Shown: positions 23,621 to 61,457 of the stretch, in pieces
How positions within the stretch are numbered: the first letter of the stretch is position 1
Layout: the number at the start of each line of letters is the position of its first letter
Source of the DNA: an uncultured Candidatus Saccharibacteria bacterium
GTDB taxonomy: Bacteria; Patescibacteriota; Minisyncoccia; 2-02-FULL-40-12; GWA2-44-9
Reading direction: 5' to 3'
Length of the DNA: 64,000 nt
Assembly: GCA_964513645.1 (NCBI GenBank)
Contig: CAZENF010000003.1
Location: 127,914 to 191,913, forward strand
Program-made: the position numbers and the translations under genes
The notes under the pieces: generated by a model
What the model was told of the DNA's origin: nothing
What the model saw: the letters and a program-made list of their open reading frames with translations, nothing else
The model's database searches: none

Positions 23621-23623
23621 ACT

Positions 23624-26925: not shown

Positions 26926-26926
26926 A

Positions 26927-35303: not shown

Positions 35304-35304
35304 T

Positions 35305-39767: not shown

Positions 39768-39796
39768 TTGTAGAAACAGTTTTAAACTGCTACAAT
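39768..39796 (+). promoter_or_regulatory. Sigma70-like promoter (TTGTAG-17-TACAAT) overlapping the annotated ATG of the downstream gene
   Basis: ttgtag at 39768-39773, 17-nt spacer, tacaat at 39791-39796. If used, translation starts downstream (candidate ATG 39843, MNNNSEGK...). Confidence 0.4.
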
Positions 39797-42440
39797 GACA
39801 TCATTAAATTTAGCTTTTTCAGGCCAGGACTTACTATTTCCAATGAACAACAATTCGGAGGGAAAATTATACATTGCGGGTATCTTGGTTGCCTTGGCCG
39901 TCATAATATTGGCGGGATATTTCCTATCCCCGTTTTCGTTTACTTTTGATCTTGCTAATTTACACGGTTCTCTTCAGGGCGGGAAGAATCCTCAACAGTA
40001 CGCCGCTTTGGTTTCTCCCGGCCTTGATACAACTCCTCCGATTGTAAGTTCCTTCGATATGCAACCCCGGACTATCAGTGCGGGCAATTATGCCACCGCC
40101 TCTTTTAATGTTACCGACTCTGGTGGCTCTCATATTGTCCGTGTTGCTCTTAACCGTGCGCCGTATAGCTCCTCCGGTTGTAATGTCGCTGATAAGTCAA
40201 GTTGTGACTGGATAAGCGTTGCAAATTCAAATACTTCTTCTGGCCTCGATTCCTGGACCGGGACTTTGATGGATAACCCTGGCCAGGGTACTTGGTGGTA
40301 CGGTTTTATGGTGGTGGACGGTGCCAATAATTTCGGCTATGAACCGGCTACAGTCGAGGTCATAGTTACAGCTGCTGTTCCGACCCCGACTCCGGGTGCG
40401 GATACTATCAAACCCAAAGTAACTTCTTTTGATGTTCAACCCCGAAATATAAATGTTGGTAGCTCTGTTAAAGTTTCCTTTACAGTAGTTGATTCTGGTG
40501 GTTCACATTTGAGTCGTGTTGGTATCAATCGGGCTTTATATAATTCAACCAACTGCAATGCTTCGGTAAAAACCGGTTGTCAGTGGGTCAGTGGCGGAAG
40601 ATTGTATCCTACAAGCGGATTAGATTCATGGTCTTCAAGTGCTGATAATTCTCCTGCTCTTGGAACATGGTGGTATGGTATATATGTAACTGATAATGGC
40701 GGTAATTTCGGATACGAGCCATATCAGATACAGGTTATCGTAAATCCTGCCTCGACACCTACTGCAACTCCATCACCAACTGCGACTCCTACGCCCACAC
40801 CAACTCCGACACCGAGGCCGAGTTCAACGTCGGTTCCGACGCCTACGCCCGGTTCAGGAGGACCTGGACCTACTACGCCTCCGACACCTACTCCGACTCC
40901 GACACCTGTTCCGACCGGCAGCGACACTATAAGACCGAAAGTAAACGCTTTTGATGTTCAACCTCGAACCCTTAACGTTGGCGGTTCAGTTCTGGCAACC
41001 TTTACTGTTTCTGATACCGGTGGCTCTCACTTATCTAAAGTCGGCTTCAGTCGGGCATCATATAATTCTTCAAATTGCAGCGAAACAGTAAAAACCACCT
41101 GCCAGTGGGTCAGTTTAGCAAAGACAGCGACACCTTATACCGACAACTGGAATTCTTCCTGGGCCGATACTCCTTCCGCCGGAACCTGGTGGTATGGAAT
41201 GTCTGCGACAGATGGCGCCGGCAATGTTGGCTATGAACCGGCAACGCTCGAAGTGTTCGTGAATACTGTTTCTTCAACCCCGACTTCGACTCCTGTTCCG
41301 GTTCCTACTGCCACTCCAAGCCAAACTCCTGTTCCGACACCTGCCCCAACTCCAACTCCGATACCTACGCCCGTTCCTACGGCAATTCCGACACCGACTC
41401 CAACTCCGTCACCAACTGTAACCCAGAATTATTCTTTTGGTTTTTCTGTAGCTGAAAGTTTCCTACCTTTATCAAGTGCTGAACTAAATGCTCGTATGGA
41501 TGATTTAGTGGCTTTGCATATTGGCTGGCTAAGGTTTGATATCGACTGGTCATCAGTGCAAGGACTAAATTCAACAATCTTTGATTGGACAGCTATAGAT
41601 AATTTAATAAGTGCAGCCAATTCGCATCACATAAAGCTTATGCCGGTTATTGATTCGACTCCACCTTGGGCTCGGCCGGCTAATTGTACTTCTAATAAAT
41701 GGTGTCCGCCGGCTGATAATAATGCTTTCGCAAATTTTGCCAAAGCTGTTGTTCAACGTTATACACCTCAAGGAGTCCATACTTGGGAAATATGGAACGA
41801 ACCCAATATCAATAGTTTTTGGCAATCTGGCCCTAATTCATCAGCTTATGCAAATCTTTTGACGGCAACCTATAATGCGATCAAAAGCGTAGATTCTTCC
41901 GCAACTGTTATATCGGCAGGATTGGCTCCTGCCGCCACTCAAGGTTCAACTATATCGCCAGTAGATTTCTTAACCAGTATGTATCAGGCGGGAGCCAAAA
42001 ATTACTTTGACGCTGTCGGTTTTCATCCATATTCATTCCCGGCCATGCCTTCTTACTACGCGGTTTGGAATGCCTGGTCGCAGATGTCCTCTACACCCAC
42101 AAGTTTGCGAAGTGTAATGTCGGCCAACGGAGATTCGGCTAAACAGATATGGTTAACCGAATATGGCGCACCTACAGGAGGGCCAGGAGCCGTTGCAGAC
42201 GTTAATAATTATAACTTCTCGGCCAGCCCGGATCATGTTACCGAAGCATTACAAGCGTCGATGTATCAGGATTCTATTAATTTGGTCCGGGGCTATTCAT
42301 GGGCCGGACCAATGTTCTTCTATTCCTATAAAGACTTAGGTACCTCTTCGAGCACCAACGAGAACTTCTTTGGCGTAATAAGATATGACGGCACTCAAAA
42401 ACCGGCTTATCAGACGGTAAAACAACTACTCGCCCAATAG
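39795..42440 (+). CDS. Secreted multidomain glycoside hydrolase: three repeated ~115-aa beta-domains joined by Pro/Thr-rich linkers + C-terminal GH5-like (clan GH-A) catalytic domain
   Basis: N-terminal signal/TM; three repeats (FD(M/V)QPR..(V/A)SF.V.DSGGSH..RV...RA.Y.S..C.....C.W.S......TWWYG......N.GYEP....V.V); PTPTPTPTP linkers; catalytic EIWNEPN (acid/base) and IWLTEYGAPTGG (nucleophile) motifs. True start may be 39843. Confidence 0.7.
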   Translation: MTSLNLAFSGQDLLFPMNNNSEGKLYIAGILVALAVIILAGYFLSPFSFTFDLANLHGSLQGGKNPQQYAALVSPGLDTTPPIVSSFDMQPRTISAGNYATASFNVTDSGGSHIVRVALNRAPYSSSGCNVADKSSCDWISVANSNTSSGLDSWTGTLMDNPGQGTWWYGFMVVDGANNFGYEPATVEVIVTAAVPTPTPGADTIKPKVTSFDVQPRNINVGSSVKVSFTVVDSGGSHLSRVGINRALYNSTNCNASVKTGCQWVSGGRLYPTSGLDSWSSSADNSPALGTWWYGIYVTDNGGNFGYEPYQIQVIVNPASTPTATPSPTATPTPTPTPTPRPSSTSVPTPTPGSGGPGPTTPPTPTPTPTPVPTGSDTIRPKVNAFDVQPRTLNVGGSVLATFTVSDTGGSHLSKVGFSRASYNSSNCSETVKTTCQWVSLAKTATPYTDNWNSSWADTPSAGTWWYGMSATDGAGNVGYEPATLEVFVNTVSSTPTSTPVPVPTATPSQTPVPTPAPTPTPIPTPVPTAIPTPTPTPSPTVTQNYSFGFSVAESFLPLSSAELNARMDDLVALHIGWLRFDIDWSSVQGLNSTIFDWTAIDNLISAANSHHIKLMPVIDSTPPWARPANCTSNKWCPPADNNAFANFAKAVVQRYTPQGVHTWEIWNEPNINSFWQSGPNSSAYANLLTATYNAIKSVDSSATVISAGLAPAATQGSTISPVDFLTSMYQAGAKNYFDAVGFHPYSFPAMPSYYAVWNAWSQMSSTPTSLRSVMSANGDSAKQIWLTEYGAPTGGPGAVADVNNYNFSASPDHVTEALQASMYQDSINLVRGYSWAGPMFFYSYKDLGTSSSTNENFFGVIRYDGTQKPAYQTVKQLLAQ

Positions 42441-42441
42441 C

Positions 42442-42669
42442 TTGAATAAATACGAATTAAAACTTATTCGTTCGCTTAGTTTGACGTTGTTTGTTTTCAG
42501 TTTTGCCGGCTGGGTTTATATTGCCGGGAACGCGATATCTCATCCCTGGACCCTCGATATGCCGCTGACTCATTTTGTTGATTTTCCGCGCGAAGATACT
42601 TTTGGTGTGGCTTGTTTCGGGATATCTTTTGTCTCGTTTTTTATCTATAATCTCGTAAAAGAAAACTGA
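42442..42669 (+). CDS. Small membrane protein
   Basis: 75 aa, two hydrophobic helices; no recognisable domain. Confidence 0.3.
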   Translation: MNKYELKLIRSLSLTLFVFSFAGWVYIAGNAISHPWTLDMPLTHFVDFPREDTFGVACFGISFVSFFIYNLVKEN

Positions 42670-42670
42670 T

Positions 42671-43783
42671 ATGAAAAAGCATTTACTCAACAAAAAATTC
42701 CTGTACGGATTGGTTGTTCTTTTTTTTATCATTCTGGTATTTACTTGGTATTCCGTCAGGAGCATGCCGGTTGTCGTTAATTTAAAAACTCCTCAACCCG
42801 CAAAGCTTAATTACCGTTTCGGTTTATCGGTCAGCCAGTCCTTGCTTTATAATTTAACCGATAACGAACTCAATTCCCGTTTAGACGATATTGCATCGAT
42901 GAACATTGGTTGGCTAAGATTTGATATCGACTGGTCTTCTGTCCAGCCGTCCGGTCCGGATTATTATGACTGGTCAGAAATTGATCGTCTCGTTGCAGGT
43001 GCGAACGTGAGAAATATAAAGCTCTTGCCGATAATCGACAATGTCCCGGCTTGGGCCAGGATTTCCGGATGTCATACTGCCTGGTGTCCGCCGGCAGATG
43101 ACAATACTTTTGCTAATTTTGTGTCAACTGTTGTAAGGCGGTACTCCTCCAAAGGCATTACCACTTGGGAAATATGGAATGAACCGAATATGAGAGGATT
43201 CTGGAAACCTGTACCTAACCCTGGAGCATATGCCGAACTTTTAAGAGCAGTATTCTTGGTGATAAAAAAACAGGAATCTTCCGCGACCGTTATTTTGGGC
43301 GGTCTCGGTTCAGCTGACCCTGATTACGGTGATATTTATGCCGCCGGTTTTTTGTCGTCGATTTATAAAGCCGGAGCCGGGCCGTATTTTGATGCGGTTG
43401 CATTTCATCCATACTCTTATCCCGGTGAACCTTCCTCTGATTTTCCGAGGAACAGTTGGCCCCAGATGCTTCAGACCGGTTCGGGTTTGCTTAGCGTGAT
43501 GGCTTCGAACGGAGACTCGTATAAAAAAATATGGTTGACCGAATTCGGCGCGCCGACTGGCGGTCCTGATTCCGTAACCGAAGACGGGCAGGCCTCGATA
43601 ATTCAGGATGCTGTCGGCTTGTGGCGGAACTATGACTGGGCAGGGCCTTTGTTCGTCTATACTTATAAGGATTCAGGCACCAATCCCAACACCAATGAAA
43701 ATTTCTTCGGCCTCCTCCGTTATAATGGTACTCAAAAGCCTGCATATAATTTGCTCAAAAACTTTGCAACTACGGTAAAGTAA
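42671..43783 (+). CDS. Membrane-anchored GH5-like (clan GH-A) glycosidase, paralog of the catalytic domain of the upstream gene
   Basis: NIGWLRFDIDWSSVQ, NIKLLPIIDNVPAWAR, TTWEIWNEPNMRGFW, YFDAVAFHPYSYP, IWLTEFGAPTGGP, NENFFGLLRYNGTQKPAY; block-for-block parallel to residues 520-881 of the upstream protein. Confidence 0.7.
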   Translation: MKKHLLNKKFLYGLVVLFFIILVFTWYSVRSMPVVVNLKTPQPAKLNYRFGLSVSQSLLYNLTDNELNSRLDDIASMNIGWLRFDIDWSSVQPSGPDYYDWSEIDRLVAGANVRNIKLLPIIDNVPAWARISGCHTAWCPPADDNTFANFVSTVVRRYSSKGITTWEIWNEPNMRGFWKPVPNPGAYAELLRAVFLVIKKQESSATVILGGLGSADPDYGDIYAAGFLSSIYKAGAGPYFDAVAFHPYSYPGEPSSDFPRNSWPQMLQTGSGLLSVMASNGDSYKKIWLTEFGAPTGGPDSVTEDGQASIIQDAVGLWRNYDWAGPLFVYTYKDSGTNPNTNENFFGLLRYNGTQKPAYNLLKNFATTVK

Positions 43784-45339: not shown

Positions 45340-46470
45340 ATGAATTCAAGTTTTAATAAAGATCTTACCAAAAGATTTATTATCGCTTTTTATGTTGGGG
45401 CGTTTTTGGCGTCTTATATCATCCAGCCCTTGATATTTTCTGTTTCGGCTCACGACAGCCCAGATTATGAATGTAAGGACCGCGGTTTTGACTTTGGTAT
45501 TGTAAAATACGATTCAGGCGGTACGGGTCCGGATACTGACGGCGCTTCCGGTTCAGACGGATACCAAACCGGCGTTGAATGGGACGGCAATATCGTGAAA
45601 TGGAATTCCGATCCGGGTGTATCCGGCGTGATAACCAAAGAGGGCGATATTTCTTATGTTAATTCGGGCGGCAGTCGGGGCAGTATTACCCAACACGGCC
45701 AGTATCCTTTTAGCCATATAACTTTTTGCGGAAAAAACTTTCATCCGACTCCGACACCGAGTCCAGTTTGTACGCCTTCTTCAACCCCGACACCTCGACC
45801 GACCACCACTCCGCATCCTACTTATACGCCGACTCCTCATCCAAGTGTAGGTCCAACTCCGACTCTAAGCCCGCTTCCTTCAGTCACTCCAAGTCCTTCA
45901 CCCTCGCCAACATCAATGCCTACTCCGATACCCACACCTTCAGCAATTCCCTCTGTAACCCCAACACCAACTCCTACGCCTTCAACAACTCCGATGGTCA
46001 CGGCTACACCTTCGCCAACTCTTGAACCTTCGGTAACTCCTGAAGTAACACCTGACCCTTCTGATACACCGATTCCGACTCCGGACCCTTCTGATACACC
46101 AACTCCGACCAATATACCTAATCCAAATCCGCCCCCTCCGCCTATCGGCGGCGGATGTTACGGCTGTGAACCTTATGTTCCGCCAAGTCCGTCTCCGATA
46201 CCCGGTGAGGGTTCTGTAGTAACTCCGACTCCGACGCCGGACTCCTCCGGTTCCCAGCCGTCCCAAAGCTTTGGCGGGCAGTTTGTTCCGGTATTACCGC
46301 CTCAGGTTTTTGGTTACTCAACTTGTTGCCTTCCTGATACTGATTCATCTTTGTTCGAGAGATTTATGATATCCATATTTACCGCCTCGGCCATGACGGG
46401 ACTCCTAATGATGATAATTGGTTTTGACCTCCTGCCTAAGTTTTTGCTCTCAACCGGCTATAAAAATTAA
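45340..46470 (+). CDS. Pro/Thr/Ser-rich cell-surface protein with C-terminal sortase-type sorting signal
   Basis: N-terminal TM/signal, globular domain, about 180 aa of PTPTPSPSP low-complexity. C-terminus LPDTD + hydrophobic stretch ([17 protein letters not shown]) + KN-containing tail. Immediately upstream of the sortase gene. Confidence 0.55.
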
Positions 46471-46479
46471 ATTTTTTTA

Positions 46480-47118
46480 ATGACGATGCCTAAACCGCTA
46501 TATTTTAAGATAGGATTGATATTGTTGCTGGTGGGTGTTGCCGGAATTCTTTTGCCTTTTATTTCTTTCGGCGTTTCGGACGATTATGCCACTCTCGAAG
46601 TAATAGCCCAAAATGAAGAAGCGCAAAATTCTCAAAACAAATTTCTTCAGCAGGTGAGTATAAGCCTGGCAACACCGACTCCTGTTCCGTCGGTCAAATT
46701 TGACCCGAACCACCTTAATGTTACCGATCGGCTGGTCATTTCAAAGATAGGCGTCGATATGCCATTGTTTGAATCTGATAAACTGTCGATACTCTGGAAA
46801 GGCGGCTGGGTTTTCCCGGGTACATCCACTCCGGATAAAGGAGGGAATACGGTAATTTTCGGACACCGTTTCCGTTATCTTCCGCCGATAAACAATACTT
46901 TTTTCTCTTTAGATAAGATACAAATGGATGATACTTTCACGGTTGTCTGGAAAGGGACGATATATCACTACCAGGTTATCGATAAAAAAGTCATCGAGCC
47001 GAGCGATTTTTCCATTTTAAGCCAGAGTTCCGAACAGGAAGTAACCCTGGTAACCTGTACACCCTTATGGACAAGCAAACAACGCCTGGTCGTAGTCGGC
47101 AAACTTTTGCCAAATTAA
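46480..47118 (+). CDS. Sortase family transpeptidase
   Basis: N-terminal TM; catalytic His (TVIFGHRF), TLxTC motif (EVTLVTCTP) and downstream Arg (QRLVVVG). Confidence 0.7.
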   Translation: MTMPKPLYFKIGLILLLVGVAGILLPFISFGVSDDYATLEVIAQNEEAQNSQNKFLQQVSISLATPTPVPSVKFDPNHLNVTDRLVISKIGVDMPLFESDKLSILWKGGWVFPGTSTPDKGGNTVIFGHRFRYLPPINNTFFSLDKIQMDDTFTVVWKGTIYHYQVIDKKVIEPSDFSILSQSSEQEVTLVTCTPLWTSKQRLVVVGKLLPN

Positions 47119-54937: not shown

Positions 54938-55189
54938 ATGAGTCTTTTGTCTTATCCGGCCGCTTTTGTCCTGGCGATATTTATTTTTGCCATAGGTTGG
55001 AGTTTGTACGGCGGAGCTTTAGAACAGAAGGACAAGATTAGCCTTCCGAGCCTCGAATATGCAAGCTTTACAACTGAAGAGAAAAAGAAATATAACGAAG
55101 ATATTAAGTCTTGTAAAAAATGGGGGATAATCGTGATTTGTGCCAGTCTTCCTTTTGTTGTGTATTTTTTCATCAAAGCCGCAATGTAG
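54938..55189 (+). CDS. Small membrane protein
   Basis: 83 aa, two TM helices. Confidence 0.3.
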   Translation: MSLLSYPAAFVLAIFIFAIGWSLYGGALEQKDKISLPSLEYASFTTEEKKKYNEDIKSCKKWGIIVICASLPFVVYFFIKAAM

Positions 55190-55197
55190 CGGCTTTT

Positions 55198-56643
55198 TTA
55201 TTCCCAGCTTGAGAACCAAACTCTGGCGTGGAAGGCCTTATCTGATAAAGGTGTGCCGTAGCTTAGAGGCGCGAAATAGATGAAAGAAATTACTGCAAGT
55301 ACAACCAGGACCAAAAACATTTTCTGGGGATCTTTTTTAACCGAAAGTTTACCGTGTTTATGTGTAATTTGTTTGAAATAATTATCCAGAAGGTAAGCCA
55401 TGATCATGACGGCAAATATCATCGCCGAAAGATAGTGGTAGAGAAACATTATTCTTTTTATCCCGACATAGGGCAGAAGGTCGAGGATGTATCCTGAAAT
55501 AAGGATAAAAAGAATTGGGGTTACATATTCGGACCTGCTCTCATATCTTCTAAGTTTTTTCCAGAGATAACCGCCGATGAGAAGTAAGGAATAAAGTATC
55601 GCGACGCTCGATGACCACCAGACAACGGGATTGCCGATGAAATAGATGCGTGAATAACCTGGGTCGGGCGGGGTGACAGATGAACTGACCCAGTAATATA
55701 TCGGTCTGAACATGAACGGCCAGGTGTACCATAAACTTGAATAGGGATGGGTTGCGGTCAGGCCCTGATTGACCAGGTACATTTGTTTGTTAAGTTCCCA
55801 GAAACGGCTGAAAATGTTCGGTACTTCTATGTTCGGATCGTTCTGATATTGGTTGCCGTCGAGGGTTTTTTGATAGCCTGCGCTCATGAATGCATCGCCG
55901 GTGCCGGACCTATGCAGTATTCCCGCGTAAGCCATTACTGCTGAAAAATAAACTATGACCGGTACGACAACCAAAGCTACGAGAGTTGTCAGGGTTTTCA
56001 GGTTTTTAAGATAGCCAAACCCGTTCCGGAACATATTTTTTAAAATATCCAATCCTTCAAAAATTACCGGGACCGCAAAGAACGAAAGGCCGACCCATTT
56101 TACCGCAAACGAACAACCGGCAAATACTCCGGTCAGAAACAGGAATTTTTTCTTATGGGTATTCCGATATTTGAAATAGAATAAAAGCGAGAGAAAACCA
56201 TAAAGCAATAGGAAACCGTCCATTAACAGAAAACGTGTCTGGACCAGAAGACCGTTATCGAACACGAGCAATAACGCCCCCAGAAATGAAGTAAAAGGGG
56301 TTATGCCGAGTTCGAGCATTATCAGATAAACTACCGTCGGTAGAACGGCTCCGGCCAGAGACGGCAGGAATCTAAGGATAAAATATTGTTTATCCGGATA
56401 TGTTTCGCCGATATTCTCGAAAGAAAAATTCGGCTGATAGTTCATAAGTTTTGCAAAACCGGAGATTGTCATTCTGGCTAAGGGCGGATGGCCGTCAAAA
56501 TGAAAAGTTCCTTTGATATAGTCATTTACGTGGCGGCCGTACCAGACCTCATCGAAAACAACCTGATTCGGATTGCCATAATAAAGAAAATGGACTAAAA
56601 GTCCGGCGGTTATCAGAACGACGATATATAGTTTATTATTCAT
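55198..56643 (-). CDS. PMT family (GT39) phospholipid-carrier-dependent protein O-mannosyltransferase homolog
   Basis: YIVVLITAGLLVHFLYYGNPNQVVFDEVWYGRHVNDYIKGTFHFDGHPPLARMTISGFAKL: conserved DE motif in loop 1 and HPPL block of PMT/GT39; polytopic 481 aa. Confidence 0.75.
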   Translation of the reverse strand: MNNKLYIVVLITAGLLVHFLYYGNPNQVVFDEVWYGRHVNDYIKGTFHFDGHPPLARMTISGFAKLMNYQPNFSFENIGETYPDKQYFILRFLPSLAGAVLPTVVYLIMLELGITPFTSFLGALLLVFDNGLLVQTRFLLMDGFLLLYGFLSLLFYFKYRNTHKKKFLFLTGVFAGCSFAVKWVGLSFFAVPVIFEGLDILKNMFRNGFGYLKNLKTLTTLVALVVVPVIVYFSAVMAYAGILHRSGTGDAFMSAGYQKTLDGNQYQNDPNIEVPNIFSRFWELNKQMYLVNQGLTATHPYSSLWYTWPFMFRPIYYWVSSSVTPPDPGYSRIYFIGNPVVWWSSSVAILYSLLLIGGYLWKKLRRYESRSEYVTPILFILISGYILDLLPYVGIKRIMFLYHYLSAMIFAVMIMAYLLDNYFKQITHKHGKLSVKKDPQKMFLVLVVLAVISFIYFAPLSYGTPLSDKAFHARVWFSSWE

Positions 56644-56673
56644 CCAGGGTATAGTATATTAATTTAAGATATT

Positions 56674-58350
56674 ATGTTCAGGATATTAAAACAATCGGTA
56701 AAAAGCCACCTTTATTACATACTCTTCTTAATTCTAACGCTCGGAACTTATTTTTCAATACTCTTCTCGAAGATACTGTATTTTAAGGATGATGGTATAT
56801 ATGCCGGCCATGTGAATGTCTGGAGCGATTGGGCTCTTCATATCGCGATTGCAAATATTTTCGCTTTCAAAAGTCCTCGGTATTGGTTCGCTTATCATCC
56901 GCTTTATGCCGGCGGCAAGTTCACTTATCCTTTTATGGCTGATATGCTGTCGGGATTTTTAATGCGGCTTGGACTGCCACTAAGACCGGCTTTTATTTTG
57001 CCTTCTGTTCTGATGGTGCTGGTTTTGCTGACCGGTCTTTATTTTTTAATGTATCTTCTGACCCGTTCCAAAAAACTGGCTGTGGTCGCAGTTATGATAT
57101 TTTTTCTGGCCGGTGGATTGGGTTTTATTGATTTTTTGAGAGATGCCTGGCAAAATCACTCGTTCTCTTTTCTGCCTTCAAACATAATGCTTGATTACGG
57201 CCGCCATGATAATTACCAGTGGTATGCCGGAAGTATGGTTGACGGATTGCTTCTGCCTCAACGTGCATTTCTGTTCGGTACGGCTTTGGGAGTCTGGGCT
57301 ATTTTAGGTCTTTTTTATGTTGTTTCAAGAGAAGACAAATTGGCAAAAAATATTAAGACAAATATATTAATTGTTGCCGGTATTTTGGCTGGAATACTGC
57401 CCGTGACCCATGCCCACAGTTTTATTGCCGTCATGGTCACCACCGGACTTTTGTGTTTTTTTAATATAAAAAAATGGATGCTCCTCTGGCCTTACGTTGC
57501 TGTTGCCGGCGTTATCTCATCCGTTCTTTATCTCACGTTCATTTCAGGCGGAATTCAGTCCGGTTCGTTTATCCAGAACCACTTAGGATATACCTCACAA
57601 GGTGATTTCTTTGACTGGTTGAGAATGTGGACCTTATTGTGGGGACTGATGCTCCCGATTGTCATGCTCGCTTTGTTTTTTTTCAGAAAAGAAATAGGAA
57701 CTTCGGGCTGGGCGTTGTATGCGGGGGCGGGCGCTCTTTTTGTGGCGGGAAATATTTTTTATTTTCAGCCGATCGCCTGGGATAATTCAAAAATTTTCTG
57801 GTGGGTTTATCTTCTGTTTTGTGCTCCGGCGGCGATGATACTCGGTAAACTTTGGTCAGGCAGGAACTTTATCTTGAGAGCGACGGCAGTTTTTATTTTT
57901 ACCACCCTTATTTTTACCGGCGTGGTTGATCTGGTCGGTCTTATTCAGATAGACAAGCATAGTTATCAGATGACCTCGGCCGAAGACATGAAACTTGGTT
58001 CCGAGATAAGCCAAAAAACCGACCCTGTGGCGGTTTTCCTTACTGCGCCGTCCCACAATCATTTCATCATGATCTGGGGTATGCGGCCGATACTGATGGG
58101 CTATACGGCCTGGGTCTGGAATTTTGGATTTAATTATAATCAACGTGAAGCCGACTTGAAACAAATGTTCTTAGGCGGAGATAACGCGCCTTCATTGTTA
58201 AAAAAATACAACATCAGCTATGTTGCCATCGGGCCGACCGAACTCCATGACCTGAACGCGAACGAACAATATTTTAAAGGTAATTTTCCTTTAGCTTTCA
58301 AAGATAATAATTACAATATTTATGATACGCGGACTGTTTTAGGACGTTAG
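56674..58350 (+). CDS. Polytopic membrane protein, uncharacterised (candidate GT-C-type glycosyltransferase)
   Basis: 558 aa with at least 11 predicted TM helices; acidic KDDGIYAGH block in the first loop; flanked by PMT and Dpm1 homologs. Confidence 0.35.
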   Translation: MFRILKQSVKSHLYYILFLILTLGTYFSILFSKILYFKDDGIYAGHVNVWSDWALHIAIANIFAFKSPRYWFAYHPLYAGGKFTYPFMADMLSGFLMRLGLPLRPAFILPSVLMVLVLLTGLYFLMYLLTRSKKLAVVAVMIFFLAGGLGFIDFLRDAWQNHSFSFLPSNIMLDYGRHDNYQWYAGSMVDGLLLPQRAFLFGTALGVWAILGLFYVVSREDKLAKNIKTNILIVAGILAGILPVTHAHSFIAVMVTTGLLCFFNIKKWMLLWPYVAVAGVISSVLYLTFISGGIQSGSFIQNHLGYTSQGDFFDWLRMWTLLWGLMLPIVMLALFFFRKEIGTSGWALYAGAGALFVAGNIFYFQPIAWDNSKIFWWVYLLFCAPAAMILGKLWSGRNFILRATAVFIFTTLIFTGVVDLVGLIQIDKHSYQMTSAEDMKLGSEISQKTDPVAVFLTAPSHNHFIMIWGMRPILMGYTAWVWNFGFNYNQREADLKQMFLGGDNAPSLLKKYNISYVAIGPTELHDLNANEQYFKGNFPLAFKDNNYNIYDTRTVLGR

Positions 58351-59058
58351 CCTGGGGCCGGAAACAGTTCGGCCAGTCAATCTGAACAAAAGGATCTCTT
58401 TAACCGCCCGCAATATAACTTTTACATTCGCTCCGGTTTGTTTGCCTGCAGTGCGAGGATAGTGGGTGACGGGGAGTTGCTTAATCTTGTAACCCATCCG
58501 TTTGGCCCTAACCAGAAGTTCTGTGTTTATCAGAGCGCCGTTAGATTCGAGATGAGCTTTTTCAATCACTTCACGTTTTATTAATTTGAAAGCACAGTCG
58601 ATATCTTTGACCCAAAGGCCGAACAAAATATTTACCGCTAACTTAAAAGTTCCGGCGTTGAGCTTACGTATGAAAGGATCCTGACGGTCGTGGCGGTATC
58701 CGATGACCAGGTCATATTTATCGGCGTATTCACCGAGCTTAGCTATCTCTTTAATATCAAATTGCCTATCTGAATCTGTAAAGAAAACCCAGTCTTTCCG
58801 GGCGGCATCAAAACCGCTTCTGACTGCCGCTCCATAGCCACGGTTTTTAATGTGATGAACCCACCTTATCCGGTCGTCTTCACGGTTTAATTTTTCCAGA
58901 ATCTCCTGGGTGTTATCGCTACTTCCGTCGTTAACTGTGATTACCTCGTAATCCCAACCCAAACTTTCCATGCAATTTTGGATATCTTTTATTAAAAGAG
59001 GCAGATTCTCGGCTTCGTTGTGGGCGGGCAGAACAATGCTTAAACTTAATTTGTTCAT
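58339..59058 (-). CDS. Polyprenol-phosphate mannose synthase (GT2, Dpm1/Ppm1-like)
   Basis: LSIVLPAHNEAENLPLLI, VITVNDGSSDNT, FFTDSDRQ (DXD), GYRHDRQDPFIRKL; 239 aa soluble GT-A. Confidence 0.8.
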   Translation of the reverse strand: MNKLSLSIVLPAHNEAENLPLLIKDIQNCMESLGWDYEVITVNDGSSDNTQEILEKLNREDDRIRWVHHIKNRGYGAAVRSGFDAARKDWVFFTDSDRQFDIKEIAKLGEYADKYDLVIGYRHDRQDPFIRKLNAGTFKLAVNILFGLWVKDIDCAFKLIKREVIEKAHLESNGALINTELLVRAKRMGYKIKQLPVTHYPRTAGKQTGANVKVILRAVKEILLFRLTGRTVSGPRLTS

Positions 59059-60434
59059 TTATGTATCTTAAACAATTTTTCCATTAATATCCCGGCCTGA
59101 TATTGAGCCGGGGTTGAACTGACGCCGTAGCTTAAAGGGGCCATAAGGAAGAAAGCTATAATTGAGAAGACGGCCAGGAAACTGAATAATTTCATGCCTT
59201 TTTCCTGACGGGACAGCCAATAAGATAAGATAATAATAGCAAAAACAAGCGCGGCCAGGTAGTGATATAGGAACATTGTCCGCTTGATAGTTACGAAAGG
59301 TAAAAGATTTGCAAAATAACCTCCCAAAAGCAGAAGTTCTGTTTTGCGTCCAGGATTTGGCCGGAAACTTAAATTTCCAAACAAGAGCATGATCACGGTG
59401 GCCGTTCCAAAAGACCAGACAATTGGATTGCCCATCAGATCGATCTGTGGACCATTGGCCGGAGTATTCTCATCCGCGACCCAGTAATCTATCGAGCCGG
59501 CCATCAACGGCCACTCGAACCATTTGCTTGCAAAAGGATGTCCGACGTTGTTGTGGTTATTTGATTCATACATTGCAATATTTATTTCGAAGAATTTTTG
59601 CAGTACACTGGATGGCTTTACCGACGCGTCGGAAGCGTAATTATTATCCTCAAGGGTTTTACGAAAACCAGGTCCGACGGCGGTATCGGCCGGACTATCT
59701 TTATAAAGAAGGCGGAAATCAATGCCAAAGATCGTAAAATAAATCACGACAGGAATTACTATGAATGCGGCGATAAGCAGAAATACTTTTTTAAATTCAA
59801 ACGTCCTCAAACCGTCCCGGTTTATTTCTGATATCATTTCGTAGCCCTCGAACAATAGAGGCAGACCTAAGAAAGAAAGGCCGGTCCATTTGATAGACAA
59901 AGCCAATCCGGCAAATATCCCCGAAGCCAGAAGATGGTAAGTGTCTTTAGTGTTTCGATATTTAAGATAAAAGAGGAAGGAGGTAAAACCGAACAAGAGA
60001 AGGAATGCGTCGAGTAATATATAATGCGACTGGACAAAAACCCCGTTCTCGAAAGTTACTAAAAGTCCTCCCAAAAAAGCCGGCTGATACTCAAGCCCAA
60101 GCTCGATAAGTATCAGGAACATAACGACCGGCAGAAGCGCTCCGGCCAGGTTAGGCAGGGCGCGGAGTATCATGTATTGTTTGTCCGGATAAACGTCTCC
60201 GATATTGGCGAAAGCAAACCCCGGCTTGAAATCGAACAGTTTAGCAAAACCTGCTATCATCATTTTTCCCAAAGGGGGATGGATATCGAAATAGAATTGG
60301 TGCGTGAAGTAAGATGAGACAAATTTACCGAAATGGACCTCGTCAAACACGACCTTATCCGGTTGCGTCAGGAAGATAAAATGCGTCAAAAGGCCAAGCG
60401 CCAGGAGAGTTAGTAAATAGTATTTTTTGGTCAT
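59055..60434 (-). CDS. PMT family (GT39) protein O-mannosyltransferase homolog, second paralog
   Basis: YYLLTLLALGLLTHFIFLTQPDKVVFDEVHFGKFVSSYFTHQFYFDIHPPLGKMMIAGFAKL; collinear with 55198..56643; overlaps the dpm1-like gene by 4 nt. Confidence 0.75.
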   Translation of the reverse strand: MTKKYYLLTLLALGLLTHFIFLTQPDKVVFDEVHFGKFVSSYFTHQFYFDIHPPLGKMMIAGFAKLFDFKPGFAFANIGDVYPDKQYMILRALPNLAGALLPVVMFLILIELGLEYQPAFLGGLLVTFENGVFVQSHYILLDAFLLLFGFTSFLFYLKYRNTKDTYHLLASGIFAGLALSIKWTGLSFLGLPLLFEGYEMISEINRDGLRTFEFKKVFLLIAAFIVIPVVIYFTIFGIDFRLLYKDSPADTAVGPGFRKTLEDNNYASDASVKPSSVLQKFFEINIAMYESNNHNNVGHPFASKWFEWPLMAGSIDYWVADENTPANGPQIDLMGNPIVWSFGTATVIMLLFGNLSFRPNPGRKTELLLLGGYFANLLPFVTIKRTMFLYHYLAALVFAIIILSYWLSRQEKGMKLFSFLAVFSIIAFFLMAPLSYGVSSTPAQYQAGILMEKLFKIHK

Positions 60435-60485
60435 TGGCGTTATGATATACTATATAGGTACAAAATTAAACCTCTAATAAATTTT

Positions 60486-61457
60486 ATGTTCGACCTCATC
60501 ATAATCGGCGGTTCGGCAGCTGCTACGACAGCGGCGATATACGGCGTCAGGCGCGGCCTTAAGTTAAAAATGCTCGCTAAAGATTTCGGCGGAGAAGTTG
60601 CAACTTCAGGTGATATCGGCAATTGGCCGGGCGAAGGCATGACGGATGGCATAACTTTAGCCGGTAAATTTAAAGACCACCTCAAACACTACAATGTCGA
60701 TATGGAAGAAGGGGTCTGGGTTGAAAAAATAGCCAAAGAAGAAGACGGAACTTTTTGTATCTCGACCAACAAGGGCAAATCAAATATGGCCGTGGACAAA
60801 ATGGCCTCTGACACGGCCGGAGGTCTTAAATGTGATTACAAAGCCAAAACCGTCATTGTTGCAACCGGGGTTCATCCCAGAGAACTCGATATTCCGGGTG
60901 AAAAAGAATACCGCAACAAGGGTGTCAGTTATTGCTCTACCTGTGATATGCCTTTGTTCATGGGCAAGACAGTAGCTGTGATAGGAGGCGGTAATTCTGC
61001 CCTCGAGTCCGGTCTGATGGCGGTTGATATTGCTAAAAAGGCCTACATCATAAACAAAAACGCTGTTTTCAAGGGCGATGACGTTTTGCTTAAAAAATTA
61101 GAAGCCGCAAAAGATAAAGTTGAAATAATTTACGAGGCCAAAACAAGCAGGGTCACAGGGGACAAGTTTGTAAATTCGTTGATGTATACTGATAAGAACG
61201 GAAAAGAACACGAGCTAAAAGTTGACGGGATATTTGTTCATATCGGCATGGTGCCGAATTCTGACCTTGTGCCGGATGATGTAGAAAAAAGCAAATTCGG
61301 AGAGATAAAGGTTAACAATAAATGCGAGACGAATATTCCCGGCCTATATGCTGCCGGTGATGTAACGGACGTGGCTTTTAAACAGATAGTTATCGCAGCC
61401 GGCCAGGGTTGTATGGCGGCGTTGAGCGCGGTCCAGTATCTTAATCAAATGAAATAA
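60486..61457 (+). CDS. trxB: Thioredoxin-disulfide reductase-like FAD/NAD(P) oxidoreductase
   Basis: DLIIIGGSAAATTAAIYG (FAD GxGxxA), redox-active CSTCDMPLF, TVAVIGGGNSALE (NADPH site), GIFVHIGMVPN, AAGDV. Confidence 0.75.
   Translation: MFDLIIIGGSAAATTAAIYGVRRGLKLKMLAKDFGGEVATSGDIGNWPGEGMTDGITLAGKFKDHLKHYNVDMEEGVWVEKIAKEEDGTFCISTNKGKSNMAVDKMASDTAGGLKCDYKAKTVIVATGVHPRELDIPGEKEYRNKGVSYCSTCDMPLFMGKTVAVIGGGNSALESGLMAVDIAKKAYIINKNAVFKGDDVLLKKLEAAKDKVEIIYEAKTSRVTGDKFVNSLMYTDKNGKEHELKVDGIFVHIGMVPNSDLVPDDVEKSKFGEIKVNNKCETNIPGLYAAGDVTDVAFKQIVIAAGQGCMAALSAVQYLNQMK

What the first reader, a model, noticed from the sequence alone, without database searches (positions are those of the whole stretch)
55198..60434. 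Protein O-mannosylation-like module: two PMT/GT39 paralogs, a Dpm1-like polyprenol-P-mannose synthase and an unknown polytopic membrane protein
PMT-family O-mannosyltransferases plus a dedicated polyprenol-phosphate mannose synthase is the minimal machinery for protein O-mannosylation known from Actinobacteria and eukaryotes. Here two divergent PMT paralogs bracket the synthase and a 558-aa uncharacterised membrane protein. The same window encodes secreted proteins with long Pro/Thr linkers (39795-42440, 45340-46470), which are classic O-mannosylation acceptors. It also encodes three GH130 mannoside phosphorylases and a PMI-like cupin (23-3493). Together these suggest a complete mannose-based glycoprotein synthesis and recycling economy.
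Basis: partly seen in the sequence, partly recalled or inferred. Interest (0 to 1): 0.7.

Follow-up and report, generated by a model that had tools for sequence, protein, structure and literature searches.

The report
PMT-type protein glycosylation gene cassette
A tiny-genome groundwater-type bacterium (Patescibacteria) carries four adjacent genes that most likely attach sugars to its secreted proteins: two protein O-mannosyltransferase-family enzymes, a maker of the lipid-linked sugar donor, and a third membrane glycosyltransferase from a large family nobody has classified. In bacteria this kind of system has so far been demonstrated only in Actinobacteria.

Summary
Four real genes lie at 55198-60434.

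- **The GT2.** The 239-aa protein is a soluble polyprenol-phosphate-sugar synthase of the ArnC/DPMS/GtrB type. It lacks the DPMS 'DAD-LQH' signature, so mannose is inferred, not shown.
- **Gene linkage.** X sits beside a PMT and/or this GT2 in 20 of 46 species-level genomes, with shuffled gene order, across Patescibacteria, Bdellovibrionota and Cyanobacteria.
- **History of the two PMTs.** PMT-A-X-GT2 is a cassette. PMT-B is the positional orthologue of a lone PMT found in related genomes.

The best reading is a lipid-linked-hexose, extracytoplasmic protein O-glycosylation module with a conserved second type of GT-C enzyme. The proposed link to the GH130/PMI 'mannose economy' is unsupported.

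The parts
55175..55196 (.). G+C-rich hairpin with T-runs on both sides. It lies between the converging ends of an orphan 83-aa ORF and PMT-A, and is probably a bidirectional terminator marking the left border of the module.
   Evidence: Terminator-like site AAAGCCGC-AATGTA-GCGGCTTT followed by a T-run. This is a consensus match only.
55198..56643 (-). PMT-A: a 481-aa MIR-less protein O-mannosyltransferase-family (GT39-type) GT-C enzyme. It is the PMT of the PMT-A/X/GT2 cassette.
   Evidence: - Pfam PMT E 4e-42 and PMT_4TMC E 4.7e-47.
- Fungal Pmt4/Pmt1 structures match at E 1e-49 and 9e-43; there is no ArnT match.
- D31-E32 aligns with Pmt1 D77-E78, and R91 with Pmt1 R138. D142, W305-YT-W308-P and R397-x2-F400 are present.
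- 611-bit orthologues sit beside X in Yanofskybacteria.
56644..56673 (.). A 30-bp AT-rich spacer between the divergent start codons of PMT-A and X. Any promoters must overlap the coding regions.
   Evidence: Sequence read directly. Promoter-like matches are not above the shuffled expectation (16 found against 11.5 +/- 3.1). The divergent PMT/X arrangement recurs in Yanofskybacteria and in Bdellovibrionota MAGs.
56674..58350 (+). X: a 558-aa GT-C-fold membrane glycosyltransferase of an unclassified family. It has a multi-helix membrane domain and a C-terminal alpha/beta extracytoplasmic domain of about 130 aa.
   Evidence: - No Pfam, NCBIfam or PDB sequence match.
- AF2 model pLDDT 94.5, pTM 0.93.
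- Foldseek: DPY19 2.4e-8, AglB 9e-8, ArnT 1.3e-6.
- D52, H56, Y85, Q196, R197, H246, H248, N360, D370, N371, K373, R471 are kept in 133-143 of 143 sequences (X plus family representatives 25-45% identical to it).
- The family has 1,445 cluster representatives at E<=1e-30.
58339..59058 (-). GT2: a 239-aa soluble GT-A glycosyltransferase with no transmembrane segment, of the polyprenol-phosphate-sugar synthase group (ArnC/DPMS/GtrB/PgfS-like). It is the presumed maker of the lipid-linked hexose donor. Its 3' end overlaps the 3' end of X by 12 bp, and its start overlaps the stop of PMT-B by 4 bp, consistent with an operon.
   Evidence: - Pfam Glycos_transf_2 E 7e-28.
- Best NCBIfam matches are ArnC, PgfS, dolichyl-P hexose transferase and AglJ, all below equivalog cut-offs.
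- PDB matches: ArnC 3.6e-22, PfDPMS 1.7e-16, GtrB 7.5e-13.
- R122 and R131 align with the Dol-P phosphate-binding Arg117 and Arg131 of PfDPMS. The DXD motif is D95-S-D97 (PMC5526996).
- No hydrophobic segment.
- Orthologues (>198 bits) sit beside X in 11 of 46 species genomes.
59055..60434 (-). PMT-B: a 459-aa second MIR-less PMT/GT39-type enzyme, 40% identical to PMT-A. It is the positional orthologue of the single PMT that occupies this SOD/TrxR slot in related Patescibacteria.
   Evidence: - Pfam PMT E 6.6e-50 and PMT_4TMC E 2e-30.
- AF2 model pLDDT 85.9.
- D31-E32, R91, D142, W305-FE-W308-P and R385-x2-F388 are present.
- In L052, L053 and L054 a lone PMT lies divergent from the thioredoxin reductase gene at the same position.
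- It sits on a long branch inside the general CPR PMT pool.
60435..60485 (.). A 51-bp spacer between the divergent starts of PMT-B and the thioredoxin-reductase gene (60486-61457). It marks the right border of the module.
   Evidence: ORF coordinates. Pfam Pyr_redox_2 E 1.2e-38 for 60486-61457. The same PMT/TrxR divergence appears in L052-L054.

Best explanation
This is a lipid-linked-sugar, extracytoplasmic protein O-glycosylation module of a Patescibacteria (Candidatus Yanofskybacteria-like) bacterium. The proposed steps are:

1. **Donor synthesis (inferred from family).** On the cytoplasmic face, the soluble GT2 transfers a hexose from a nucleotide sugar to polyprenol phosphate. The hexose is most likely mannose from GDP-mannose.
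2. **Flipping (not accounted for).** The glycolipid is flipped by a flippase that is not encoded in the module.
3. **Protein glycosylation (family and catalytic residues shown; sugar and acceptors inferred).** On the outer face, the two MIR-less PMT/GT39 enzymes transfer the sugar to Ser/Thr of translocated, unfolded Pro/Thr/Ser-rich segments of secreted or wall-anchored proteins. The DE motif lies in the first external loop.
4. **Second GT-C step (inferred).** X is a catalytically competent GT-C enzyme of an unclassified family. It uses the same lipid-linked donor on the outside to add a further sugar to a glycan acceptor, most plausibly extending the PMT-installed O-linked sugar. It may act in physical partnership with PMT-A, as Pmt1-Pmt2 do in yeast and Pmt-Rv0051 do in mycobacteria.

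PMT-A, X and GT2 form a transferable three-gene cassette. PMT-B is the resident PMT of this chromosomal slot.
For: **PMT membership.**
- Pfam PMT plus PMT_4TMC in both proteins.
- The only solved-structure sequence matches are fungal PMTs.
- Every residue shown essential in yeast Pmt1 or M. tuberculosis PMT has its counterpart: DE, the R138 equivalent, the D176 equivalent, Rx2[YF], and the W of the EL4 C-terminal helix. These are invariant or nearly so in 30 relatives, including those next to X in other phyla (PMC12331936).

**GT2 as a polyprenol-P glycosyltransferase.**
- Best solved relatives are ArnC, DPMS and GtrB.
- The Arg117/Arg131 equivalents are kept (PMC5526996).

**X as a GT-C enzyme.**
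- High-confidence model and fold matches.
- Near-invariant D52 and H56 in the first external loop, plus Q196, R197, H246, H248, D370, N371 and K373, across 143 sequences (X plus representatives 25-45% identical to it).

**Functional linkage.**
- In 46 species-level genomes holding X, the two commonest cross-phylum neighbours are a PMT (14 loci) and this GT2 family (13-14 loci). One or both occur in 20 loci, with different gene orders and orientations.
- All seven neighbouring PMT-like genes tested by Pfam carry PMT plus PMT_4TMC.

**Hints of a glycan acceptor for X.** C-terminal PA14 in 6 family members, NPCBM in 1, and N-terminal acyltransferase-3 in 1.

**Candidate acceptors.** Two secreted proteins with long PT tracts, one of them a probable sortase substrate next to a sortase gene.

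**Precedents.**
- Bacterial PMT prefers proline-rich sites (PMC12331936).
- Mycobacterial Pmt works with a second GT-C protein (bioRxiv 10.64898/2026.07.15.738315).
- The streptococcal PgfS/PgfM1/PgfM2 system combines one GT2 with two GT-C enzymes acting on Ser/Thr-rich regions (PMC11092751).
Against: - No experiment supports any step. The sugar is not determined.
- The GT2 is nearer to ArnC than to DPMS. It lacks the DPMS 'DAD-LQH' motif: DSD-RQF, with His94 replaced by Phe and Phe177-Lys178 by Ala-Leu.
- Annotation pipelines call its relatives only 'GT family 2'.
- NCBIfam's actinobacterial Pmt equivalog model scores only 64 and 36 bits against a cut-off of 800.
- No flippase gene and no GDP-mannose synthesis gene are in the module or window.
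- X occurs without an adjacent PMT or GT2 in 26 of 46 loci and in all Armatimonadota loci, so its role need not depend on PMT.
- The CBM fusions fit polysaccharide acceptors equally well.
- The PT-rich proteins lie 9-15 kb away and are not linked by conserved neighbourhood.
Confidence: 0.58

Rival explanations
1. The architecture and logic are the same, but the sugar is not mannose. The GT2 would load glucose, an N-acetylhexosamine or another sugar from a UDP-sugar. The PMT-family enzymes would then O-glycosylate proteins with it, as streptococci do with GtrB/PgtC2 (glucose) and PgfS/PgfM1 (GalNAc).
For: - The GT2's closest solved relative is the UDP-sugar enzyme ArnC (3.6e-22, against 1.7e-16 for DPMS).
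- The second-best NCBIfam match is PgfS.
- The DPMS donor signature is not met (PMC5526996).
- Precedent in PMC11092751.
Against: - Every characterised GT39/PMT enzyme uses mannosyl-phosphoryl-polyprenol (established knowledge).
- The loop around the catalytic DE motif of PMT-B (VVFDEVHFGKF) is identical to that of a fungal Pmt4.
- The C-terminal half of the GT2 aligns better with DPMS than with ArnC.
- The streptococcal GT-C enzymes are of the YfhO family, not PMT.
Confidence: 0.2
2. The acceptors are not proteins. The module would decorate a cell-envelope glycopolymer, peptidoglycan or a glycolipid, by analogy with CsbB/YfhO teichoic-acid glycosylation, GtrB/GtrV O-antigen glucosylation or the GT136 three-component systems.
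For: - X homologues are fused to lectin-like PA14 or NPCBM domains and to an acyltransferase-3 domain, which is typical of enzymes acting on glycans.
- The GT136 prototype also carries a C-terminal CBM (PMC11127046).
- The window holds a large polysaccharide-synthesis island at 25072-38424.
- X occurs without PMT in many genomes.
Against: - PMT-family enzymes are known only as protein Ser/Thr O-mannosyltransferases.
- Both PMTs keep the EL4 C-terminal W-x-x-W-P helix and the aromatic residues implicated in peptide binding (PMC12331936).
- This explanation may hold for X alone without affecting the PMTs.
Confidence: 0.15
3. X is not an enzyme. It would be a non-catalytic GT-C-fold partner that dimerises with PMT-A and recruits or gates the acceptor, like ML2687c/Rv0051 in the mycobacterial Pmt complex.
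For: - A conserved PMT-X gene pair across phyla.
- Precedent of a catalytically dead GT87-like partner of Pmt, and of GT39-GT87 fusions in Paenibacillus (bioRxiv 10.64898/2026.07.15.738315).
Against: - X keeps a near-invariant constellation of charged and polar residues, including D52 and H56 in external loop 1 and D370-N371-x-K373, across relatives only 25-45% identical to it. The mycobacterial partner is reported to lack catalytic residues.
- X is more often paired with the donor synthase GT2 alone than a pure PMT accessory would be.
Confidence: 0.12
4. The genes form an ArnC/ArnT-like lipid A (GT83) modification system, or they are merely adjacent by chance.
For: Pfam PF02366 also covers ArnT-type proteins (from memory). 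The GT2's best solved match is ArnC.
Against: - No ArnT match in PDB sequence searches or NCBIfam.
- The PMT_4TMC domain is present.
- Patescibacteria are not known to make lipid A (established knowledge).
- Chance adjacency is contradicted by recurrence in 20 of 46 loci with shuffled order in three phyla.
Confidence: 0.02

Closest known systems
Actinobacterial protein O-mannosylation (M. tuberculosis Rv1002c / S. coelicolor Pmt with the Ppm1 polyprenol-P-mannose synthase)
   Same: - MIR-less PMT with about 11 TM helices.
- DE motif in external loop 1, a second essential Asp, an Rx2[YF] motif in loop 5 and the W-containing EL4 C-terminal helix (PMC12331936).
- A TM-less GT2 donor synthase.
- Pro/Thr-rich secreted proteins as likely acceptors.
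   Different: - A different phylum (Patescibacteria).
- Sequences are closer to fungal PMTs (E 1e-43 to 1e-50) than to the NCBIfam actinobacterial Pmt model (64 and 36 bits against a cut-off of 800).
- Two paralogues instead of one.
- PMT, synthase and a third GT-C are clustered here.
- The synthase lacks the DPMS signature.
Mycobacterial Pmt complex with a second GT-C protein (ML2687c/Rv0051, GT87-like), and the yeast Pmt1-Pmt2 heterodimer
   Same: A PMT paired with another GT-C-fold membrane protein. Here the pairing appears as a conserved, often divergent or overlapping, gene pair across phyla.
   Different: - X has an OST/ArnT-like architecture with a C-terminal globular domain and keeps near-invariant polar residues. 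The mycobacterial partner is described as catalytically dead.
- Physical interaction was not tested here.
Streptococcal O-glycosylation of Ser/Thr-rich disordered regions (GtrB + PgtC2; PgfS + PgfM1 + PgfM2)
   Same: A GT2 polyprenol-P-sugar synthase combined with one or two extracytoplasmic GT-C enzymes that act on Ser/Thr-rich extracellular segments, including wall-anchored adhesins (PMC11092751). PgfS is the GT2's second-best NCBIfam match.
   Different: - Those GT-C enzymes belong to the YfhO family, not PMT or X.
- The sugars there are Glc or GalNAc.
- GtrB/PgfS are compared here only by sequence score; the window's GT2 has no hydrophobic segment.
Three-component extracytoplasmic glycosylation systems (GtrA/GtrB/GtrV; ArnC/ArnT; PPPRS/MATE/GT136)
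   Same: The same logic: a cytoplasmic polyprenol-P-sugar synthase, then flipping, then a GT-C transferase. Some X homologues carry a C-terminal carbohydrate-binding module, as GT136 does.
   Different: - No flippase gene in the module.
- The transferases are PMT-type, meaning protein acceptors in all known cases, plus an unclassified GT-C.
- ArnT membership was tested and not met.
OST / DPY19 / ArnT / AftA group of GT-C enzymes (structural neighbours of X)
   Same: The overall fold and size. 409-461 residues superpose, and the C-terminal domain resembles the AglB globular domain.
   Different: - Sequence identity is only 8-13%.
- No profile match to STT3, PMT, PMT_2 or other GT-C Pfam families.
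- No WWD[YW]G motif. The position-equivalent motif is W-x-x-[STN]-[YFH]-G.

Membership tests
PMT / GT39 protein O-mannosyltransferase (PMT-A and PMT-B) | N-terminal PMT domain (PF02366) and C-terminal PMT_4TMC domain (PF16192), both above Pfam gathering scores | tested here: met
   - PMT-A: 144.9 and 160.5 bits.
- PMT-B: 170.4 and 106.3 bits.
- Cut-offs: 22.7 and 32.4.
PMT / GT39 protein O-mannosyltransferase (PMT-A and PMT-B) | Asp-Glu (DE) motif in the first extracytoplasmic loop, aligned with Pmt1 D77-E78 | tested here: met
   D31-E32 in both proteins. The residue-by-residue alignment to yeast Pmt1 (6p25_A) places them on D77-E78. They are invariant in 30 relatives. The outside orientation follows from homology to the solved Pmt1 structure and from Lys residues at the short N-terminus. 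It was not computed with a topology predictor.
PMT / GT39 protein O-mannosyltransferase (PMT-A and PMT-B) | Other residues shown essential in Pmt1 or MtPMT: Arg (Pmt1 R138), second Asp (MtPMT D176), Rx2[YF] in loop 5 (MtPMT R441/Y444; Pmt1 R649/F652), and Trp of the EL4 C-terminal helix (MtPMT W362) | tested here: met
   R91, D142, R397-x2-F400 (PMT-A) or R385-x2-F388 (PMT-B), and W308 are present. All are invariant or >=29/30 in alignment A2. The residue roles are taken from PMC12331936. The D142 = MtPMT D176 equivalence is inferred from motif position, not from a direct alignment to MtPMT.
PMT / GT39 protein O-mannosyltransferase (PMT-A and PMT-B) | Whole-protein PMT fold, clearly closer to PMTs than to ArnT/GT83 or OST | tested here: met
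   [not shown]
PMT / GT39 protein O-mannosyltransferase (PMT-A and PMT-B) | Luminal MIR (beta-trefoil) domain in loop 4 (a feature of eukaryotic PMTs only) | tested here: not met
   No MIR Pfam match. The proteins are 459-481 aa, against 750-820 aa for fungal PMTs. The PDB alignments skip the fungal 330-540 region. Actinobacterial PMTs lack MIR as well (PMC12331936).
PMT / GT39 protein O-mannosyltransferase (PMT-A and PMT-B) | Equivalog of the actinobacterial Pmt (NCBIfam NF058602, cut-off 800 bits) | tested here: not met
   64.1 and 35.7 bits, covering the C-terminal part only. This is the same family but a distinct clade.
PMT / GT39 protein O-mannosyltransferase (PMT-A and PMT-B) | Transfer of mannose from Man-P-polyprenol to Ser/Thr of proteins | not testable with these tools
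   Requires biochemistry or glycoproteomics.
Polyprenol/dolichol-phosphate mannose synthase (DPMS / Dpm1 / Ppm1) (the 239-aa GT2) | GT2 GT-A catalytic domain, with closest relatives among polyprenol-phosphate glycosyltransferases | tested here: met
   - PF00535 E 7e-28.
- PDB: ArnC 3.6e-22, PfDPMS 1.7e-16, GtrB 7.5e-13.
- NCBIfam: ArnC, PgfS, dolichyl-P hexose transferase, AglJ, PpgS.
Polyprenol/dolichol-phosphate mannose synthase (DPMS / Dpm1 / Ppm1) (the 239-aa GT2) | Residues positioning the polyprenol phosphate (PfDPMS Arg117, Arg131, Ser135) | tested here: inconclusive
   R122 and R131 align with Arg117 and Arg131. Asn134 stands at the Ser135 position, next to an alignment gap (roles from PMC5526996).
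Polyprenol/dolichol-phosphate mannose synthase (DPMS / Dpm1 / Ppm1) (the 239-aa GT2) | DPMS donor signature 89-DADLQH-94 (Asp89 and His94 contact mannose O2/O3) and Phe177-Lys178 | tested here: not met
   The motif reads D95-S-D-R-Q-F100, so His is replaced by Phe. Ala-Leu align with Phe177-Lys178. Asp, Asp and Gln are kept, so metal and diphosphate binding is plausible, but mannose specificity is not supported.
Polyprenol/dolichol-phosphate mannose synthase (DPMS / Dpm1 / Ppm1) (the 239-aa GT2) | GDP-mannose as donor | not testable with these tools
   Requires an enzyme assay. No manC or manB gene is in the window, and the rest of the genome was not available.
GT-C glycosyltransferase superfamily (protein X) | GT-C membrane fold | tested here: met
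   [not shown]
GT-C glycosyltransferase superfamily (protein X) | Conserved acidic residue in the first extracytoplasmic loop | tested here: met
   D52 is conserved in 140/143 and H56 in 141/143 diverse family members. Both lie in the segment after TM1 (residues 35-87). The catalytic role is inferred.
GT-C glycosyltransferase superfamily (protein X) | Membership of a described GT-C sequence family (PMT, PMT_2/ArnT, STT3, YfhO, GT87, DUF2723 and others) | tested here: not met
   - No Pfam family at E<=1 in 36 members, except weak DUF6798 in 5.
- No NCBIfam match.
- hhalign against the PMT profile gives probability 4%.
- No PDB sequence match at E<=10.
- CAZy could not be consulted.
Oligosaccharyltransferase (STT3/PglB/AglB) (protein X) | WWD[YWF]G motif in the C-terminal domain | tested here: not met
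   [not shown]
Three-component polyprenol-P-sugar glycosylation system (synthase + flippase + GT-C) | A dedicated flippase gene (GtrA, MATE or Wzx type) in the locus | tested here: not met
   There is none between 54938 and 60485. The adjacent 83-aa two-TM ORF has no Pfam match and no homologue in any related locus.

The most novel reading that the evidence does not exclude
X founds a new, widespread GT-C glycosyltransferase family of thousands of sequence clusters. It would be the catalytic partner of MIR-less bacterial PMTs. Together with a dedicated lipid-sugar synthase, PMT and X would form a mobile three-gene cassette that builds O-linked di- or oligosaccharides on secreted proteins in Patescibacteria, Bdellovibrionota and Cyanobacteria. 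This would be a protein O-glycosylation pathway outside Actinobacteria that has not yet been recognised.
Probability: 0.3. Interest if true: 0.7.

Novelty: new variant of a known kind. Interest (0 to 1): 0.5.

Why it matters
In bacteria, protein O-mannosylation has been shown experimentally only in Actinobacteria (PMC12331936; bioRxiv 10.64898/2026.07.15.738315). Here a complete-looking PMT module sits in an ultra-small Patescibacteria genome. Its core, a PMT next to the unclassified GT-C protein X and often with the same small GT2, recurs in Bdellovibrionota and Cyanobacteria.

If the module is functional, three things follow:
- PMT-type protein glycosylation extends to several more phyla.
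- A large orphan membrane-protein family (at least 1,445 50%-identity clusters, no Pfam model) gains a first functional context.
- The recent idea that PMTs generally work with a second GT-C partner gains support.

For episymbiotic Patescibacteria, glycosylated Pro/Thr-rich surface proteins could matter for attachment to hosts and for protease resistance. The cassette is compact, at 3 to 4 genes. It can be tested directly by heterologous expression with one of the window's own PT-linker proteins as reporter.

Tried and rejected
- **ArnT/GT83 or other non-PMT assignment of the outer genes.** Rejected.
- **X as a divergent PMT.** Profile-profile comparison gives probability 4%. Rejected at the sequence level; only the fold is shared.
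- **X as an oligosaccharyltransferase.** The C-terminal domain resembles AglB's. A W-x-W-N-F-G stretch at 480-485 looked like WWDYG, but across the family the Asp position is S/T/N and there is no STT3 profile match. Rejected.
- **Foldseek against the AlphaFold database.** The library was not available.
- **The 83-aa two-TM ORF at 54938-55189 as flippase or small complex subunit.** No Pfam match and no homologue in any related locus. Dropped.
- **Promoter and terminator scans of the module.** Counts were not above shuffled controls. Only the hairpin at 55175-55196 is worth noting.
- **Source names for the four proteins.** None are on record. Homologues carry only generic names.
- **Crude hydropathy scan.** It under-calls helices in PMT-B (6 segments), so it was not used for topology.
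- **GH130/PMI genes as part of the system.** There is no neighbourhood link, and the anomeric specificity is wrong for recycling alpha-mannosides. Rejected as part of the module.

Full report
**Observation.** The mechanical ORF list reproduces the four reading frames of the finding exactly:
- 55198-56643 (-), 481 aa, called PMT-A here
- 56674-58350 (+), 558 aa, called X
- 58339-59058 (-), 239 aa, called GT2
- 59055-60434 (-), 459 aa, called PMT-B

The GC content (0.42-0.43) matches the rest of the window. GT2 and PMT-B overlap by 4 bp, consistent with an operon. X and GT2 converge and overlap by 12 bp. PMT-A and X diverge from a 30-bp AT-rich spacer. A hairpin with flanking T-runs at 55175-55196 closes the left side. 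No tRNA or Rfam element is in the window.

The exact proteins exist in public data on a 264,921-bp NCBI contig and on a Logan contig, without names. The best relatives of X (61-64% identity) and the surrounding gene order match Candidatus Yanofskybacteria, a Patescibacteria/CPR lineage. That order is glutaredoxin, Fe-SOD, the module, thioredoxin reductase, RpiB, Rpe, PfkB.

**The two outer genes are PMT/GT39-type enzymes.**
- Both match Pfam PMT (E 4e-42 and 6.6e-50) and the PMT-specific C-terminal PMT_4TMC (E 4.7e-47 and 2e-30).
- Against all PDB sequences, the only matches are fungal Pmt1, Pmt2 and Pmt4 (E 1e-30 to 1e-50). ArnT does not appear.
- NCBIfam gives no ArnT match. It gives only weak matches to the actinobacterial Pmt equivalog model (64 and 36 bits, cut-off 800) and to Agl23.
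- The residue-level alignment to yeast Pmt1 puts D31-E32 on the catalytic D77-E78 and R91 on R138.
- The residues shown essential in M. tuberculosis PMT are D74, D176, R441-x2-Y444 and W362 in a PWTWP helix (PMC12331936). Their counterparts here are D31, D142, R-x2-F and W-x-x-W308-P. All are invariant or nearly so in 30 relatives.
- There is no MIR domain, as in actinobacterial PMTs.

**The two paralogues have different histories.**
- They are 40% identical.
- PMT-A has 611-bit orthologues that sit beside X in Yanofskybacteria and clusters with them in a neighbour-joining tree.
- PMT-B is a long branch inside the general pool of CPR PMTs. These are abundant: 991 matches, annotated 'phospholipid carrier-dependent glycosyltransferase' or 'dolichyl-phosphate-mannose-protein mannosyltransferase'.
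- In three related genomes, the same chromosomal slot between SOD and thioredoxin reductase holds a single PMT. It diverges from the reductase gene exactly as PMT-B does (L052-L054).
- In two Yanofskybacteria the slot holds PMT-A, X and GT2 but no PMT-B.

So PMT-B is the resident PMT, and PMT-A-X-GT2 behaves as an inserted cassette. This genome has kept both.

**The GT2.**
- It is a GT-A family-2 enzyme (E 7e-28) with no hydrophobic segment.
- Its best solved relatives are all polyprenol-phosphate glycosyltransferases: ArnC (3.6e-22), P. furiosus DPMS (1.7e-16) and GtrB (7.5e-13).
- NCBIfam ranks ArnC, PgfS, a dolichyl-phosphate hexose transferase, AglJ and PpgS, all far below equivalog cut-offs.
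- Aligned to PfDPMS and read against the structural paper (PMC5526996), it keeps Glu12, the base-binding Asp39, the metal/diphosphate Asp and Gln, the A-loop Arg202, and the two arginines that position the lipid phosphate (R122 and R131).
- The DPMS motif DAD-LQH is DSD-RQF here, so the mannose-O3 ligand His94 becomes Phe. Phe177-Lys178 become Ala-Leu.
- Close homologues (50-56% identity, 230-240 aa) are widespread in other phyla and carry only generic names.

I conclude that it makes a polyprenol-phosphate sugar. Calling it a mannose synthase rests on its PMT partners, not on its own sequence.

**Protein X.**
- It has no Pfam, NCBIfam or PDB sequence match. This holds even when 36 family members are scanned at E<=1.
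- A profile-profile comparison with the PMT alignment is insignificant (probability 4%).
- Foldseek agrees: DPY19 2.4e-8, AglB, STT3, ArnT, PglB, AftA.
- The family is large, with 1,445 representatives of 50%-identity clusters at E<=1e-30 and 3,936 at E<=1e-3.
- Across 143 sequences (X plus representatives only 25-45% identical to it), a set of polar residues is almost invariant: D52 and H56 in the first external loop, then Y85, Q196, R197, H246, H248, N360, D370, N371, K373 and R471. This argues for an active enzyme rather than a scaffold.
- Seven of ten unusually long members tested carry a C-terminal PA14 (six) or NPCBM (one) lectin-type domain. One carries an N-terminal acyltransferase-3 domain. 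This places the C-terminus outside the cell and hints at a glycan acceptor.
- A WWDYG-like stretch that I noticed does not hold up across the family.

**Linkage of the genes.**
- A scan of one genome per species found X in 46 loci, from Patescibacteria, Cyanobacteria, Bdellovibrionota and Armatimonadota.
- Within 6 kb of X, a PMT occurs in 14 loci and the GT2 family in 13-14. One or both occur in 20 of 46. They are the two most frequent neighbour families that cross phylum boundaries. Other recurrent neighbours are synteny within one clade.
- All seven neighbouring PMT-like genes tested have both PMT Pfam domains above threshold. They include those in Bdellovibrionota MAGs and a cyanobacterium.
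- Gene order and orientation differ between lineages. Examples are PMT<- ->X <-GT2; PMT<- ->GT2->X in a Saccharibacteria MAG; and PMT->X in a cyanobacterium. This is the classic signature of functional coupling.
- With one or two PMT genes among a thousand or more genes per genome, fewer than one such neighbour would be expected by chance in 46 loci. This is a rough estimate of mine.
- In Armatimonadota, and in 26 loci overall, X stands without either partner nearby. Some of those contigs are short.

**Mechanism.** The best-supported reading is the usual logic of lipid-linked extracytoplasmic glycosylation:
1. The GT2 charges polyprenol phosphate with a sugar in the cytoplasm.
2. An unidentified flippase exposes the glycolipid on the outside.
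3. The PMTs transfer the sugar to Ser/Thr of unfolded segments of exported proteins.
4. X uses the same donor for a further transfer.

The PMT family assignment and catalytic equipment are shown. The polyprenol-phosphate acceptor of the GT2 is well supported. The identity of the sugar, the protein acceptors and the role of X are inferred.

Two recent reports give precedents for a PMT working with another GT-C protein, or for two GT-C enzymes sharing one GT2:
- Mycobacterial Pmt co-purifies with a GT87-like GT-C protein (Rv0051 orthologues), and some Paenibacillus GT39 enzymes are fused to GT87 (bioRxiv 10.64898/2026.07.15.738315).
- Streptococci glycosylate Ser/Thr-rich extracellular regions with PgfS plus the GT-C enzymes PgfM1 and PgfM2, or with GtrB plus PgtC2 (PMC11092751).

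X belongs to neither of those GT-C families.

**Candidate acceptors and the 'mannose economy'.** Only two ORFs of >=100 aa in the window's six-frame scan have >=70% Pro+Thr over 30 residues:
- An 881-aa membrane-anchored protein with three repeated domains, two long PT linkers and a GH5/GH39-like domain (39795-42440).
- A 376-aa PT-rich protein ending in LPDTD, a hydrophobic segment and a basic tail. It lies directly upstream of a sortase gene (45340-47118).

These fit the proline-rich site preference of bacterial PMT (PMC12331936), but nothing links them to the module beyond co-residence in the genome.

The GH130 genes and the small PMI-type cupin are real. They are 52 kb away and absent from every related locus examined. 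GH130 enzymes are specific for beta-mannosides, whereas GT-C products from beta-Man-P-polyprenol are alpha-linked (established knowledge). I therefore do not count them as part of the system.

**Novelty and verdict.**
- PMT homologues in CPR genomes are already annotated at family level, so their presence is not new.
- Searches of the held literature found no paper linking PMT or O-mannosylation to Patescibacteria or the candidate phyla radiation. Recent papers still describe bacterial O-mannosylation as actinobacterial.
- Four things are new here: X is identified as an unclassified, widespread GT-C family. A PMT-X-GT2 cassette is conserved across phyla. The two PMT paralogues have separate origins. 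The GT2 does not carry the DPMS signature.

I rate this a new variant of a known kind and of moderate interest (0.5). It is well-founded and directly testable, but mechanistically within the known GT2 plus GT-C paradigm.

Noticed in passing
window 25072-38424: A polysaccharide-biosynthesis island with lower GC (0.36-0.40, against 0.43-0.45 elsewhere), made of unusual fusion proteins:
- GT2+GT4 (617 aa)
- a polysaccharide deacetylase
- a 1,138-aa protein with three GT4 modules
- GT4+methyltransferase (640 aa)
- a 791-aa DUF2206 membrane protein
- a 1,057-aa pyruvyl-transferase + Wzx-type flippase fusion

It may be horizontally acquired.
   Followed up: partly
window 45340-47118: A PT-rich 376-aa secreted protein ends in LPDTD, a hydrophobic helix and a basic tail. 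A sortase gene follows 9 bp downstream (Pfam Sortase E 7.5e-22). This looks like a sortase-substrate pair with a non-canonical LPxTD signal in a Patescibacteria genome.
   Followed up: partly
window 39795-43783: An 881-aa membrane-anchored protein has three repeats of a ~110-aa domain containing conserved Cys/Trp, separated by PT linkers and followed by a weak GH5/GH39-like domain. A second GH5/GH39-like protein (370 aa) lies just downstream.
   Followed up: partly
window 23-3493: A 639-aa protein shows two GH130 matched stretches, apparently a tandem fusion. Next to it are a 377-aa GH130 protein and a stand-alone 115-aa type-II PMI cupin (PF01050 E 4.4e-23). This is probably a beta-mannoside phosphorolysis/catabolism unit and is not linked to the PMT module.
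   Followed up: partly
window 58339-58350 and loci L007, L010, L012, L017, L018, L022, L042: The convergent genes X and GT2 overlap at their 3' ends in many genomes: 12 bp here, and 4 to 63 bp elsewhere as read from first-possible-start ORF coordinates. Convergent transcription across overlapping ends seems to be a conserved feature of this pair.
   Followed up: no
loci L014, L018, L022, L028, L030, L031, L033, L036, L042: MAGs titled 'uncultured Pseudomonadales' or 'Pseudomonadales bacterium' share the gene order Lon, PEGA/SH3 protein, X, GT2, TIM, UvrD, FemAB with records titled Patescibacteria. One isolate is even named HK-STAS-PATE-15. The taxonomic labels look wrong.
   Followed up: no
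loci L010, L012, L022, L026, L042 (e.g. L010:4242-5921): In one Patescibacteria clade, another GT-C-like membrane protein lies near X, directly upstream in L010. It is 389-559 aa, with a weak Pfam PMT match over the central part only (E 2e-8) and no PMT_4TMC. X therefore often keeps company with other GT-C enzymes besides true PMTs.
   Followed up: partly
window 54938-55189: An orphan 83-aa ORF with two hydrophobic helices and a Lys/Glu-rich loop lies between SOD and PMT-A. It has no Pfam match and no homologue in any related locus except the identical Logan contig.
   Followed up: yes
window 8387-11372 and locus L004:202-2879: A GT5 glycogen synthase and a GH57 enzyme lie side by side in the window. 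The same two families also lie a few kb from the PMT-X pair in the Bdellovibrionota MAG. This is probably coincidence.
   Followed up: no
window 19384-24091: A type IV pilus/T2SS-like gene set: PilB-type ATPase (T2SSE E 3e-118), PilC-type platform protein, a 500-aa LVIVD-repeat protein and a prepilin with an N-terminal methylation motif.
   Followed up: no
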